From positions 1-10,653 of the IMG/VR virus record IMGVR_UViG_3300036770_002544: 10,653 nucleotides of DNA; one strand, 5' to 3'. Source of the stretch: a virus. Its lineage: Duplodnaviria; Heunggongvirae; Uroviricota; Caudoviricetes. Shown here one piece after another: positions 3,494-9,966 of this stretch (positions within the stretch are counted from its first letter, which is position 1; the number at the start of each line of letters is the position of its first letter). Both the position numbers and the translations under genes were made by a program. The notes under the pieces were generated by a model. The model ran no database searches, was not told the origin of the DNA, and worked only from the letters and a program-made list of their open reading frames with translations.

Positions 3494-4029
3494 TTAGTTC
3501 AAGTCCAAAACGCGGTCACTTTCAGCGAGACTGCTACATCCAACGTTGCCAAGATGAGGGCGAAGAACCTGATCCCTTGATGCTCGGTATCTACGAGTAC
3601 AAGGATAGTTTAGATCCCGCAGCAGATAACAGCAACAACATGGAGTGGGATCTGCGCACCACTGATTGGATATTGGCCAAGGTCCGTACCAGCGAAGCAT
3701 ACGCTCAAAACTTGTATGCAGCCATGTGCAATAATGACTTTCAACGAAATGAAGTTTGGCCACAGTTAAAAAATCAAACTTGGTCATGCTCCTGGCGCTA
3801 TGCAGGAGGCATTGTTGCAGACATGCGTCAAGAAGGTGACTACATTGATTGGTACTGCTCGGGTATTAGAGGTAGTGCTAGTGAAGAACAACTAGCAGAA
3901 TACTCAGAAGAAGACCGCGAACGGTATCATTGGATGGACCAAAACTTTGTAAGTGAAATGACTGTAACCGATGAAATACGTGCAGATTTGTTTCGTTTAG
4001 GATGGATTGTGATTGACAATTCAGAATAA
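3490..4029 (+). CDS. acidic hypothetical phage protein (179 aa)
   Basis: ORF track; Trp/Tyr-rich segment YAQNLYAAMCNN...WSCSWRYAGGIVAD...YIDWYCSG; function not recognised. Confidence 0.85.
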   Translation: MISSSPKRGHFQRDCYIQRCQDEGEEPDPLMLGIYEYKDSLDPAADNSNNMEWDLRTTDWILAKVRTSEAYAQNLYAAMCNNDFQRNEVWPQLKNQTWSCSWRYAGGIVADMRQEGDYIDWYCSGIRGSASEEQLAEYSEEDRERYHWMDQNFVSEMTVTDEIRADLFRLGWIVIDNSE

Positions 4030-4045
4030 TAAATATATAATATAA

Positions 4046-4335
4046 GTTATTGCTGTATGAAGCAAAGAGAAAAGTGTTCTGGACGAGGGTTCGATTCCCT
4101 CCATCTCCACCAAAAGCATTCTATCCCCACCTGACGAGGAAGGATCAAAAGAACTAAAAAGAATGCTTCTGATGGGGATGATCTGGTTTCGACAGGGCAA
4201 AGAGTAACAGAGTGGACAGCACAAGAGCAACCTTGTAAAAAGAAGAAAATCTATAACTGCAAACGCAGCCAATGATGAGGTATTTGCCTTAGCGGCATGA
4301 TCTCTGGGGCAACTATGCCTTATTACCCAAAATAG
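4046..4335 (+). ncRNA. ssrA: circularly permuted (two-piece) tmRNA
   Basis: The acceptor piece comes first (T-arm GAGGG-TTCGATT-CCCTC, CATCTCC-A-CCA ending 4112), then an intervening segment (4113-4173). The coding piece starts GGGGATG at 4174 (G3:U70 pair) with GGTTTCGAC. The tag ORF 4259-4300 encodes ANAANDEVFALAA*. Outer ends are approximate. Confidence 0.9.
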
Positions 4336-4336
4336 T

Positions 4337-4359
4337 GGAACCTGCTTCGGCAGGTTTCC
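4337..4359 (+). terminator. UUCG hairpin after the tmRNA coding piece (terminator or 3' processing/stability hairpin)
   Basis: AACCTGC-TTCG-GCAGGTT; weak U-tract. Confidence 0.55.
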
Positions 4360-4384
4360 TGCTGAAATTTAACTCAAGGAAATT

Positions 4385-4984
4385 ATGAAAAAACTTTTAA
4401 CCACACTTATCGTAGCCGCTGCTGGTGCAGCATCTGCTCAAACCGTTGACAACTGGACAGCCAGCGGCGCACCTGTGCGCAATGGTACCCAAGAACTGTG
4501 CTGGCGTGATGCTAGCTGGACTCCTGCCACTGCTCATCCCGACTGCGATGGCGCACTAAAGAAACCACGTGTTACTGCAACTGTTCCTGCACCAGTGGCG
4601 CCTGTGGCCAAACCTGCACCACAGCCTGTGGCAGTCAAGCAATCCTATGCTGCCGATGCATTTTTTGACTTTGATAAAACTGTGATCAAGCCCGAAGGCC
4701 GTGCCAAATTGAATACGTTGATTGCAAACATCAACAACATCACTCTTGAAGTTGTGATTGCTGTGGGACACACCGATTCAGTCGGCACCGACACTTACAA
4801 TCAAAAACTAGGTCAGCGTCGAGCAGATGCAGTCCGTGCTTACCTAGTAAGTCAAGGTATTGATCCAAAACGAGTATATACCGAATCCCGAGGTGAGCTA
4901 AAACCGATAGCAGATAATCGAACTGCTGTGGGCCGTGCTCGAAACCGTAGAGTAGAAATTGAAGTAATTGGTACTCGGCGTTAA
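4385..4984 (+). CDS. ompA: OmpA-family outer membrane / peptidoglycan-binding protein
   Basis: Signal peptide, N-terminal CWRDASWTPATAHPDCDG, Pro/Ala linker, and OmpA C-domain (FDFDK, GHTDSVG...YNQKLGQRRADAV, RARNRRVEI); AAGGA SD. Confidence 0.92.
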   Translation: MKKLLTTLIVAAAGAASAQTVDNWTASGAPVRNGTQELCWRDASWTPATAHPDCDGALKKPRVTATVPAPVAPVAKPAPQPVAVKQSYAADAFFDFDKTVIKPEGRAKLNTLIANINNITLEVVIAVGHTDSVGTDTYNQKLGQRRADAVRAYLVSQGIDPKRVYTESRGELKPIADNRTAVGRARNRRVEIEVIGTRR

Positions 4985-7136: not shown

Positions 7137-7216
7137 GTGCGTTTGGTCTAAATGTTAGGGCATCATGACATGGGGCTAGAAACCTCAAGATGCGGGTTCG
7201 AATCCCGTAACGCACA
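7137..7216 (+). tRNA. atypical tRNA, apparent anticodon AGA, with an insertion between the D and anticodon arms
   Basis: Perfect GTGCGTT/AACGCAC acceptor, T-arm GCGGG-TTCGAAT-CCCGT, TGGGG-CTAGAAA-CCTCA arm; followed by CCG, not CCA. Confidence 0.6.
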
Positions 7217-8817: not shown

Positions 8818-9879
8818 ATGAAATTATCAGATGTTAGATCTCTGGCACTAGAAGTCACTTCGCACTGCAACATTAGATGCCCGCAATGCTCAAGAATTAA
8901 TTGGGACGGGGAACTTGCTGAGTTTATTCAACTTCAGCATTGGGATATTAACAAAATATTACCAAACTTGCAGGTAGAATCAATGCCACAGTTGAGTTTT
9001 GTTCGAATCGAAGGTGACAACGGCGATGCACTCATGCATCCTGACATTGTGGAAATTGTTGAACATTTTTACAATGCTCCGACCAAACCACGAATTTTGA
9101 TATTGACCAATGGCTCGATGAGATCTGCTAAGTGGTGGAAAGAATTTGGCCAAAGATTTAGTGGCCGTTTGCGTGTGCAGTTCAGCATAGATGGTCTAGA
9201 AGACACGCATGCGTTGTACCGTGTGGGTGCAGACTATAACAAAACAATAGAAAATGCGCGAGCATTTATTGCAGGTGGTGGCGAAGCCACGCAACGATGC
9301 TTGATTTTTGATCACAACAAACACCAACTTGATGATATACGAGCAACAAGTTTAGACATAGGTTTTGTAGGATTGAGAATTACTCCTGGAGATCTGTTTA
9401 GATTCCAGGGAGAAAAAACATGGAAGGTATTCTGGAAGGGCAAAAATACACATGATATTGCCCCAATACCGAATTTTGATTTTGATTTCTCGCCGTGGGA
9501 ATACAATAAGACTGATGTACAAATGAGCCCAATACTCGGGTCTGATGAAATACACAAAGATGGGCTAAACCATCTTTGTCCTGTGTTTAATAAAAGAGAA
9601 ATTACTATTACGTACAAAGGACATTTAATACCTTGTTGTATATATCAAGCAGATTTGTATTTCATGCGGGACTTCAATGTAGATTATCAAAATTTAGTCG
9701 GAGATATGAATTTAATGAATTTAAATCTACGAACGCTACACGACATTCTCAGTGATCCGTTGTATTATGGTAATCGATGGGAAAGCATGCTGGCAAGCAA
9801 TAATAGATTTCCAAAGTGTCAAGCCACATGCGGATCACAACTAGATCGCAGAATCATACAAATTCAGGAGCGTTGCTAA
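8818..9879 (+). CDS. radical SAM protein with SPASM/twitch-like C-terminus
   Basis: CNIRCPQC (CxxxCxxC), GDNGDAL, LTNGS, FSIDGL...H..YR, and C-terminal CPV...HLIPCC...CQATC. Confidence 0.92.
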   Translation: MKLSDVRSLALEVTSHCNIRCPQCSRINWDGELAEFIQLQHWDINKILPNLQVESMPQLSFVRIEGDNGDALMHPDIVEIVEHFYNAPTKPRILILTNGSMRSAKWWKEFGQRFSGRLRVQFSIDGLEDTHALYRVGADYNKTIENARAFIAGGGEATQRCLIFDHNKHQLDDIRATSLDIGFVGLRITPGDLFRFQGEKTWKVFWKGKNTHDIAPIPNFDFDFSPWEYNKTDVQMSPILGSDEIHKDGLNHLCPVFNKREITITYKGHLIPCCIYQADLYFMRDFNVDYQNLVGDMNLMNLNLRTLHDILSDPLYYGNRWESMLASNNRFPKCQATCGSQLDRRIIQIQERC

Positions 9880-9966
9880 TATTGGCCTTAGGGCGACCCT
9901 TATAAAGTCGTAAGCACTGTCCAGATAAGGCAGTTAATGTGGGTTCGATTCCCACCGCTCCTACCA
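9866..9966 (+). tRNA. atypical tRNA-Ile(GAT) with a large D-loop insertion (overlaps the last 14 nt of the radical SAM ORF)
   Basis: AGGAGCG/CGCTCCT acceptor plus A-CCA, CTGTC-CA GAT AA-GGCAG (A33), GTGGG-TTCGATT-CCCAC; 101 nt. Confidence 0.75.

What the first reader, a model, noticed from the sequence alone, without database searches (positions are those of the whole stretch)
4046..4335. Circularly permuted two-piece tmRNA in a phage
The sequence shows the tRNA-like 3' piece (T-arm plus ACCA, ending 4112) lying upstream of the 5' piece (GGGGATG, 4174). The pieces pair as an Ala acceptor stem with G3:U70, and also via 4075-4080/4194-4199 and 4051-4056/4216-4221. The tag reads ANAANDEVFALAA after the ATAACT resume context. 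Two-piece tmRNAs are established in Alphaproteobacteria, some cyanobacteria and some Betaproteobacteria, and the phage tmRNAs I know are one-piece. This compact version seems to have lost most pseudoknots and would be missed by routine annotation.
Basis: partly seen in the sequence, partly recalled or inferred. Interest (0 to 1): 0.85.

Follow-up and report, generated by a model that had tools for sequence, protein, structure and literature searches.

The report
Two-piece tmRNA gene in jumbo phage
A fragment of an uncultured giant bacteriophage carries a complete, rearranged ("two-piece") gene for tmRNA, the RNA that rescues stalled ribosomes; it is real and looks functional, but phage genes of this type are already published and standard tools detect them, so it is a good new example and not a new kind of thing.

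Summary
ARAGORN calls a permuted tmRNA (tag ANAANDEVFALAA). Rfam matches tmRNA_permuted (128.7 bits, cut-off 47) and beta_tmRNA (119.6 bits, cut-off 84). In 69 related sequences every helix of the tRNA-like domain covaries and G3:U70 is invariant. The replicon is a phage: an IMG/VR virus record of 74.6 kb, about 21% complete, with 35 tRNAs. Its 343-525 kb relatives all have a large terminase, and 4 of 5 carry a permuted tmRNA. No SmpB gene was found in the contig or in the five relatives, so the RNA must use host SmpB.

The novelty claims do not hold.
- Two-piece tmRNAs in phages are published (Buchholz 2022: 53 of 133 unique phage tmRNAs).
- Some Stenotrophomonas phage GenBank records annotate them.
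- They occur in more than 70 IMG/VR contigs I fetched.
- This scan has noted them many times on other DNA.
- The low pseudoknot count is the normal state of the two-piece class, and this gene covers the whole beta-type model.
- Routine tools find it easily, although deposited phage records often omit it.

Verdict: a new member of a known kind, of low interest.

The parts
4013..4041 (+). Sigma-70-type promoter: TTGACA (4013-4018), 17-nt spacer, TATAAT (4036-4041). The predicted transcript start is near 4048.
   Evidence: 12 of 12 consensus matches. The beta_tmRNA model also aligns its promoter-like 5' region here. The start site is inferred.
4048..4112 (+). Acceptor piece (3' tRNA-like piece, about 62-65 nt). 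It holds P2 5' strands 4051-4056 and 4075-4080, T-arm 4085-4101, acceptor 3' strand 4102-4108, discriminator A4109 and encoded CCA 4110-4112.
   Evidence: covariation. The 5' end is inferred from the promoter.
4113..4173 (+). Intervening segment (61 nt) removed on maturation. It is closed by a 9-bp stem, 4114-4122/4160-4168, that stacks on the acceptor stem. It contains no reading frame.
   Evidence: The stem covaries in 8 of 9 pairs, with 92% standard pairs. The MFE fold recovers it. No ORF longer than 3 codons lies inside it. Removal is inferred.
4174..4221 (+). 5' end of the coding piece. It holds acceptor 5' strand GGGGATG 4174-4180 (G3 = 4176), the conserved GGTTTCGAC 4185-4193, and P2 3' strands 4194-4199 and 4216-4221.
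   Evidence: G3:U70 is present in 69 of 69 sequences.
4222..4235 (+). PK1-position hairpin, stem 4222-4225/4232-4235 with loop AGCAAC. I could not identify a second pseudoknot stem in this sequence.
   Evidence: All 4 pairs covary on both sides. The absence of a second stem is by inspection only.
4253..4300 (+). Resume context ATAACT (4253-4258), resume codon GCA 4259-4261, tag frame 4259-4297 encoding ANAANDEVFALAA, stop TGA 4298-4300.
   Evidence: ARAGORN. The Rfam alignment puts GCA at the consensus resume position.
4305..4336 (+). Post-tag H-type pseudoknot (PK2 position). Stem 1 is TGGGG 4305-4309 with CCTTA 4318-4322. Stem 2 is ACTAT 4312-4316 with ATAGT 4332-4336. The conserved loop is TTACCCAAA.
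   Evidence: Alignment-free search, mean 9.2 paired bases in 63 relatives against 6.7 in shuffles; the same layout is found in bacterial L022. Limited covariation. Moderately supported.
4337..4358 (+). 3'-terminal 9-bp hairpin with a UUCG loop (4337-4345/4350-4358) and no U-tract after it. It is the probable 3' end or stabiliser of the coding piece.
   Evidence: It matches the terminal hairpin of the beta_tmRNA model and appears in the MFE and centroid folds. Its role is inferred.

Best explanation
This is a complete, beta-type, circularly permuted ssrA gene carried in the tRNA array of an uncultured jumbo phage.

Likely mechanism:
1. Host RNA polymerase transcribes it from a perfect sigma-70 promoter as one precursor of about 310 nt, roughly 4048 to 4358.
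2. The precursor folds so that the acceptor stem is closed by the spacer stem-loop.
3. RNase P cuts 5' of G4174. Cleavage and trimming in the spacer expose the encoded CCA at 4112.
4. This gives an acceptor piece of about 65 nt and a coding piece of about 185 nt, held together by the acceptor stem and the two P2 helices.
5. Host AlaRS charges it through G3:U70. Host SmpB and EF-Tu deliver it to ribosomes stalled on broken mRNAs.
6. Translation resumes at GCA 4259, and the nascent chain receives (A)ANAANDEVFALAA, whose ALAA end targets it to host proteases.

For the phage this keeps ribosomes available while host and phage mRNAs are being degraded, alongside its 35 tRNAs.

Shown: the gene's identity, architecture, conservation and phage location. 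Inferred: transcription start, two-piece processing, charging, dependence on host SmpB, and the benefit to the phage.
For: - ARAGORN calls tmRNA* with an ALAA-ending tag.
- RF04321 scores 128.7 bits and RF01850 119.6 bits, both over the full model length.
- The promoter matches 12 of 12 consensus positions.
- In 69 unique relatives, the acceptor, T, P2 and spacer helices form 92-100% standard pairs with compensatory changes, and G3:U70 is invariant.
- The PK1 hairpin covaries, and a PK2 like that of a bacterial beta-type gene is present.
- The precursor fold has z = -3.4 and recovers the T-arm, acceptor stem, spacer stem and 3' hairpin.
- Phage location: the window lies in an IMG/VR virus record that is 21% complete and has 35 tRNAs in 21 kb. 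PHROG families and a GIY-YIG homing endonuclease lie beside it. Near-complete 343-525 kb relatives are syntenic, all have a large terminase, and 4 of 5 have a permuted tmRNA.
- No SmpB was found in the contig or in five relatives that are 97-100% complete.
- The two-piece mechanism and its processing are established for Caulobacter and reviewed in PMC3985003.
Against: - There is no expression, end-mapping, charging or tagging datum for this or any close relative.
- The contig is only about 21% of the genome, so an SmpB gene elsewhere in this particular phage is not excluded.
- The tag has a 3-residue N-terminal extension (ANA) relative to the usual ANDxxxALAA, and its effect is unknown.
- I found no second stem for PK1.
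- The 3' hairpin lacks a U-tract, so the 3' end is uncertain.
- The nearest tmRNA sequence found is only about 67-69% identical.
Confidence: 0.85

Rival explanations
1. It is a decoy or modulator and not a rescuer. The phage RNA competes with host tmRNA for SmpB, or retags stalled products with a variant tag, in order to damp or redirect host trans-translation.
For: No phage SmpB was found, so the RNA must compete for the host protein. The tag carries an unusual ANA extension. A phage tRNA-like-domain-only tmRNA (DS6A) is reported, and a similar molecule inhibits tmRNA, perhaps by titrating SmpB (PMC4131195; PMC11915505).
Against: Unlike DS6A, this gene keeps the full message domain, the resume context and a canonical ALAA end. 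Relatives keep standard ANDxxxALAA tags, as expected for genuine tagging.
Confidence: 0.08
2. It is an inactive relic: a captured host ssrA that is decaying and no longer used.
For: Its Rfam beta_tmRNA score (119.6 bits) is well below those of typical bacterial members (169-296 bits). I could not find a second PK1 stem.
Against: Every functional element is intact, and the promoter is a perfect consensus. Helices are maintained by compensatory changes across 69 sequences. The gene is kept in 4 of 5 distant near-complete relatives.
Confidence: 0.04
3. It is the host's own ssrA, either on a bacterial contig or as host DNA at a prophage integration site.
For: tmRNA genes are common integration sites for islands and prophages (PMC11915505). 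Some IMG/VR contigs with high beta_tmRNA scores (164 bits) could be of that kind.
Against: The gene lies inside a 35-tRNA array between phage-family genes on a virus record. Syntenic relatives are 343-525 kb phage genomes with a terminase. GC content is 43.6%. Only 4 of 151 sampled genomes of the order holding Herbaspirillum score above the RF01850 cut-off.
Confidence: 0.02

Closest known systems
Betaproteobacterial two-piece tmRNA (Rfam RF01850 beta_tmRNA; Sharkady and Williams 2004, cited from memory and through PMC3985003 and PMC9004378)
   Same: Same gene order: acceptor piece, spacer, coding piece. Same tRNA-like domain, P2 helices and PK1-position hairpin. Same post-tag pseudoknot with a TTACC-type loop, terminal hairpin and promoter-like 5' region. 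The match covers the full model at 119.6 bits, and the tag core is ANDExFALAA.
   Different: It is carried by a phage. The score is lower than for bacterial members (169-296 bits). The spacer is longer (61 nt; the model consensus shows a shorter spacer, with 16 unshown consensus positions aligned to 50 window bases). The tag has an ANA extension. I saw no second PK1 stem.
Phage-encoded two-piece tmRNAs: Methylophilales phage Melnitz, pelagimyophages and others (Buchholz et al. 2022, PMC9004378)
   Same: A permuted ssrA carried by a large lytic-type phage and placed behind an early-type promoter. The paper counts 53 two-piece forms among 133 unique phage tmRNAs.
   Different: By that paper's phylogeny, Melnitz's gene is of the alphaproteobacterial type and has a glutamine riboswitch in its 3' domain. 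No riboswitch family reached Rfam's gathering score anywhere in this window.
Permuted tmRNA of Stenotrophomonas Menderavirus phages (e.g. Marzo MZ326868, annotated 'tmRNA') and of phages DLP_6, Rb1, BUDD and JGB6
   Same: Permuted genes inside phage tRNA clusters. All five tested match RF04321 (77-137 bits), and Marzo, DLP_6 and JGB6 also pass RF01850 (94-104 bits); Rb1 and BUDD do not. The spacer stem shows compensatory changes relative to the window.
   Different: Overall identity is only about 58%. Tags differ (VAANDDSYTVRIAA and others). From general knowledge, the Xanthomonadales hosts have one-piece tmRNA. Four of these five records leave the gene unannotated.
One-piece phage tmRNAs (mycobacteriophage Bxz1 group, Bacillus phage G, Cellulophaga phage Calle_1)
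   Same: Phage-borne ssrA with no SmpB reported beside it. The presumed role in ribosome rescue is the same.
   Different: Standard gene order, matching RF00023 (Calle_1). These were the only phage tmRNAs listed in 2014 (PMC4131195).

Membership tests
Circularly permuted (two-piece) tmRNA, Rfam RF04321 / RF01850 | Permuted gene order: the T-arm, acceptor 3' strand and CCA lie upstream of the acceptor 5' strand and the tag frame | tested here: met
   CCA ends at 4112 and G1 is at 4174. ARAGORN calls tmRNA*.
Circularly permuted (two-piece) tmRNA, Rfam RF04321 / RF01850 | Covariance-model score above the curated gathering threshold | tested here: met
   RF04321 scores 128.7 against 47, and RF01850 scores 119.6 against 84, both over the full model length.
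Circularly permuted (two-piece) tmRNA, Rfam RF04321 / RF01850 | tRNA-Ala identity: a 7-bp acceptor stem with G3:U70, discriminator A and a CCA end | tested here: met
   G4176:T4106, A4109, CCA 4110-4112. G:U is present in 69 of 69 relatives.
Circularly permuted (two-piece) tmRNA, Rfam RF04321 / RF01850 | Inter-piece helices (P2) that hold the two RNAs together, maintained by compensatory change | tested here: met
   4051-4056/4216-4221 and 4075-4080/4194-4199 form 93% and 98% standard pairs. Double-sided covariation is seen in 5/6 and 6/6 pairs.
Circularly permuted (two-piece) tmRNA, Rfam RF04321 / RF01850 | Tag reading frame with a GCA resume codon in the consensus context and a hydrophobic proteolysis end (ALAA) | tested here: met
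   Frame 4259-4300 encodes ANAANDEVFALAA plus stop.
Circularly permuted (two-piece) tmRNA, Rfam RF04321 / RF01850 | Two pseudoknots (PK1 and PK2) flanking the tag frame, as is typical of two-piece forms (PMC3985003) | tested here: inconclusive
   The PK1-position hairpin covaries, but I found no second stem. The PK2 H-type fold is present and resembles bacterial L022, with modest statistical support.
Circularly permuted (two-piece) tmRNA, Rfam RF04321 / RF01850 | The precursor is processed into two stable RNAs | not testable with these tools
Only the covarying spacer stem suggests a processed precursor.
Circularly permuted (two-piece) tmRNA, Rfam RF04321 / RF01850 | Alanylation, SmpB binding and trans-translation activity | not testable with these tools
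   These need biochemistry. No phage SmpB was found in the contig or in five near-complete relatives, so the host protein would be used.
Phage-encoded tmRNA (as opposed to host chromosomal ssrA) | The gene lies on a viral replicon | tested here: met
   IMG/VR virus record, a 35-tRNA array and PHROG families next to it. Syntenic 343-525 kb relatives have a large terminase.

The most novel reading that the evidence does not exclude
The beta-like two-piece tmRNA may be mainly a phage-borne gene lineage that moves among large phages regardless of the host's own tmRNA type.

Observations in favour:
- It occurs in phages of Xanthomonadales, whose own tmRNA I take from general knowledge to be one-piece.
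- It occurs as a second copy in Herbaspirillum next to a lower-GC, possibly phage-derived stretch.
- Only 4 of 151 sampled genomes of the order holding Herbaspirillum carry it.
- Bacterial copies nest among phage copies in an unresolved tree.

On this reading the window's extended tag (ANA + ANDEVFALAA, also seen as ANASNDEVYALAA in L134) would re-route tagged proteins in the phage's favour. It could also mean that the bacterial beta lineage acquired its permuted gene from phages.
Probability: 0.12. Interest if true: 0.5.

Novelty: new member of a known kind. Interest (0 to 1): 0.17.

Why it matters
It adds one more well-formed example of large phages carrying their own ribosome-rescue RNA alongside a near-complete tRNA set while relying on host SmpB. 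This fits the view that jumbo phages buffer translation during infection.

The practical point is annotation. ARAGORN and Rfam find these genes easily, yet many deposited phage records omit them or overlay them with hypothetical proteins. Only 4 of 16 Stenotrophomonas phage records list a tmRNA under the match, and Rb1, BUDD, DLP_6 and JGB6 list none.

The beta-type sequence and the ANDExFALAA tag core are a weak pointer to a betaproteobacterial-type host. It does not open a new question by itself.

Tried and rejected
- Phage SmpB. PF01668 was not found in the contig or in five relatives that are 97-100% complete.
- Bacterial counterparts by exact pattern. This returned only three Herbaspirillum genomes, because the pattern's spacer range excludes typical bacterial genes. 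An RF01850 search of 151 genomes of that order gave 4 above the cut-off.
- Sharkady and Williams 2004 (PMC516066) is not held. The supplements of the tmRNA database paper contain no phage breakdown.
- A second stem for PK1. I found no convincing partner for the loop AGCAAC by inspection or by a covariation scan.
- MAFFT alignment of the 3' third is poor, so column-based counts for PK2 stem 2 and for the terminal hairpin are uninformative. I used an alignment-free search instead.
- My first terminator pairing was mis-indexed and is discarded.
- The tree of 73 tmRNA genes is unresolved at depth. The window pairs with L144 only (SH-aLRT 91), so no donor or host can be inferred from it.
- A gene inside the spacer, as earlier scan notes report for other phages, is not present here. 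The spacer is 61 nt with no ORF.

Full report
**Observation.**
- The T stem is 4085-4089/4097-4101 around the loop TTCGATT.
- The acceptor 3' strand is 4102-4108, followed by discriminator A4109 and CCA 4110-4112.
- The 5' piece begins with GGGGATG at 4174-4180 and forms a 7-bp acceptor stem with G4176:T4106, the alanine G3:U70 pair.
- The cross-piece helices 4075-4080/4194-4199 (six pairs, two of them G-U) and 4051-4056/4216-4221 (six Watson-Crick pairs) are present.
- The context ATAACT (4253-4258) precedes GCA 4259. The frame reads ANAANDEVFALAA and stops at TGA 4298-4300.

ARAGORN independently calls a permuted tmRNA (tmRNA*) at 4020-4391 with this tag. Rfam matches tmRNA_permuted RF04321 at 128.7 bits (cut-off 47) and beta_tmRNA RF01850 at 119.6 bits (cut-off 84). 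Both matches run from the first to the last model position.

**Full anatomy.** The unit is wider than the reported span.
- A perfect sigma-70 promoter (TTGACA, 17 nt, TATAAT; 12 of 12) lies at 4013-4041. The transcript should therefore start near 4048, just before the first P2 strand.
- The 61-nt intervening segment (4113-4173) is closed by a 9-bp stem, 4114-4122/4160-4168, that extends the acceptor stem.
- After the P2 3' strands comes a hairpin at the PK1 position (4222-4225/4232-4235).
- After the stop codon comes an H-type pseudoknot: 4305-4309 pairs with 4318-4322 and 4312-4316 pairs with 4332-4336, with the loop TTACCCAAA.
- The unit ends in a 9-bp UUCG hairpin, 4337-4358, with no U-tract after it.

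The minimum-energy fold of 4048-4362 recovers the T-arm, the acceptor stem, the spacer stem and the terminal hairpin (z = -3.4).

**Comparative support.** I collected 69 unique permuted tmRNA genes.
- Two exact-pattern scans of IMG/VR returned 10 and 62 viral contigs, a few of them in both lists.
- Loci around relatives of the upstream protein, and whole-record searches of relatives, added more.
- ARAGORN calls a permuted tmRNA in 64 of the 67 pattern-scan loci, almost all with ANDxxxALAA-type tags.
- A few bacterial genes were included as well.

In a MAFFT alignment of the 69 sequences:

| Helix | Standard pairs | Pairs changed on both sides |
|---|---|---|
| P2 distal | 93% | 5 of 6 |
| P2 proximal | 98% | 6 of 6 |
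| T stem | 100% | 1 of 5 |
| Acceptor stem | 99.6% | 2 of 7 |
| Spacer stem | 92% | 8 of 9 |

- Sliding the 3' partner by one or two columns drops the paired fraction to 22-81%.
- G3:U70 is present in all 69 sequences.
- The four pairs of the PK1-position hairpin all covary.
- An alignment-free search finds the post-tag pseudoknot at a mean of 9.2 paired bases against 6.7 in shuffles. A high-scoring bacterial beta-type gene (L022) has the same layout.

**Is it a phage?** Yes.
- The window is the first 10.6 kb of a single 74,653-bp IMG/VR virus record. CheckV estimates it at 21% complete, which implies a genome of roughly 350 kb.
- GC content is 43.6%, and the record has 35 tRNA genes plus the tmRNA in its first 21 kb.
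- Neighbouring genes hit PHROG families, including a GIY-YIG homing endonuclease and radical SAM proteins.
- The protein just upstream has at least 599 relatives on viral contigs.
- Five relatives are 343-525 kb records that are 97-100% complete. All five have a large terminase and share pieces of the tRNA array with the window. Four of the five carry a permuted tmRNA at 90-136 bits.
- SmpB (PF01668) was found neither in the contig nor in any of the five near-complete relatives. The positive controls for that search worked.

The RNA therefore has to work with host SmpB. Because the window's own genome is incomplete, this is an inference from its relatives.

**Mechanism.** The steps below follow the established pathway for two-piece tmRNA (reviewed in PMC3985003).
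1. Host RNA polymerase transcribes one precursor from the consensus promoter.
2. RNase P cuts 5' of G4174, and the spacer is cleaved and trimmed back to the encoded CCA at 4112.
3. The acceptor piece (about 65 nt) and the coding piece (about 185 nt) stay paired through the acceptor stem and P2.
4. AlaRS charges the RNA through G3:U70.
5. SmpB and EF-Tu bring it to stalled ribosomes.
6. Translation resumes at GCA 4259, and the stalled chain receives (A)ANAANDEVFALAA, whose ALAA end targets it to host proteases.

Identity, architecture and conservation are shown here. Processing, charging, tagging and the benefit to the phage are inferred.

**Comparison with what is known.** The gene is a member of the beta-type permuted family. 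I found the same type in cultured phages.
- Stenotrophomonas phage Marzo carries an annotated tmRNA that ARAGORN calls permuted. It matches RF04321 at 119 bits and RF01850 at 94.6 bits.
- Phages DLP_6, Rb1, BUDD and JGB6 carry permuted genes (RF04321 at 77-137 bits) that their records do not annotate. In BUDD and JGB6 a hypothetical protein is drawn over the gene.
- Of the 16 Stenotrophomonas phage records with the matching locus, only 4 list a tmRNA feature under the match.

The literature covers the phenomenon.
- Buchholz et al. 2022 describe the two-piece tmRNA of phage Melnitz. They count 53 two-piece forms among 133 unique phage tmRNAs, 50 of them from aquatic phages (PMC9004378).
- Al-Shayeb et al. 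2020 report tmRNAs and SmpB in huge phages (PMC7162821).
- The tmRNA database paper lists 79 phage sequences and is the source of RF04321 (PMC11915505).
- This scan has also recorded such genes many times on other DNA. 856 notes in at least 681 genomes share the search words, and several follow-ups reached the same verdict.

**The 'compact, pseudoknot-poor' claim.** Two-piece tmRNAs typically keep only PK1 and PK2 (PMC3985003). This gene spans the whole beta_tmRNA model in 361 nt. Its post-tag pseudoknot and terminal hairpin are like those of bacterial members. It is not a specially reduced version. The one possible reduction is that I could not find a second stem for PK1, and that is by inspection only.

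**What is individual about this copy.**
- It is divergent. The nearest sequence found is about 67-69% identical (L144, on a 102-kb viral contig). It does not group with the tmRNAs of its own genomic relatives in a poorly resolved tree.
- Its tag has a three-residue extension before the usual ANDEVFALAA. One other contig, L134, has a similar ANASNDEVYALAA.
- Its spacer is short and empty. In the near-complete relatives G152-G154 the spacer holds a Shine-Dalgarno sequence and a small reading frame of 26-54 codons. Earlier notes of this scan reported that layout for other phages. I did not test whether those frames are under selection.

**Rivals.**
- A decoy or modulator of host trans-translation is possible, because the RNA must share host SmpB and the tag is altered. 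The intact message domain and ALAA end argue for real tagging.
- A decaying relic is contradicted by the consensus promoter, the compensatory changes and retention in distant relatives.
- Host chromosomal DNA is contradicted by the viral context.

**Verdict.** I class it as a new member of a known kind, of low interest.

The most novel reading still open is that this beta-like permuted gene is mainly a phage-borne lineage that circulates independently of the host's tmRNA type.
- It occurs in phages of hosts that I take from general knowledge to have one-piece tmRNA.
- It occurs as a second copy in Herbaspirillum beside a standard gene. That copy sits at the edge of a lower-GC stretch with one DNA-packaging-like hit.
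- Only 4 of 151 sampled genomes of the order holding Herbaspirillum score above the RF01850 cut-off.

The tree cannot decide the direction of transfer. I put this reading at about 0.12.

Noticed in passing
L188 (G153), L189 (G152), L190 (G154): spacer of their permuted tmRNA genes: In three near-complete jumbo relatives the tmRNA intervening segment is much longer than in the window. Directly after the CCA it holds a Shine-Dalgarno-like AAGGA and a small ORF of 54, 37 or 26 codons (two of them hydrophobic), ending just before G1. The window's 61-nt spacer has an SD-like GAGGAAGGA (about 4136-4144) but no ORF, which could be a remnant.
   Followed up: partly
L018/L020/L196 (Herbaspirillum genome G001) and L021: Herbaspirillum carries both a standard one-piece tmRNA (tag ANDNSYALAA) and a permuted beta-like copy with an odd tag (ANDSQFLAYGT, no ALAA end). 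The permuted copy sits between ordinary sugar-transport genes and a lower-GC stretch of unknown proteins, one with a weak DNA-packaging-protein hit. The position suggests an island or prophage edge.
   Followed up: partly
L192-L195 (Xanthomonas phages Rb1, BUDD, JGB6; Stenotrophomonas phage DLP_6) and the Menderavirus records: Permuted tmRNA genes are present but unannotated in these GenBank records. In BUDD and JGB6 a hypothetical-protein CDS overlaps the gene. In several Menderavirus records the locus has no feature, or only 'tRNA-Leu' or 'tRNA-OTHER'.
   Followed up: yes
window 4385-4984 (+): The gene directly downstream of the tmRNA encodes a 199-aa OmpA-family (peptidoglycan-binding) protein. 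Its N-terminus looks like a signal peptide by eye. The tmRNA's 3' hairpin has no U-tract, so read-through into this gene is possible.
   Followed up: no
window 7137-7216 and 9866-9963 (+): Rfam's tRNA model matches two further elements (51.3 and 41.4 bits) that ARAGORN does not call. The second is 98 nt long, which is unusual for a tRNA.
   Followed up: no
L134 against window 4259-4297: A second viral contig has a similarly extended tag (ANASNDEVYALAA) although its tmRNA is not sister to the window's in the tree. The extension may have arisen twice, or the tag region may have been exchanged.
   Followed up: no
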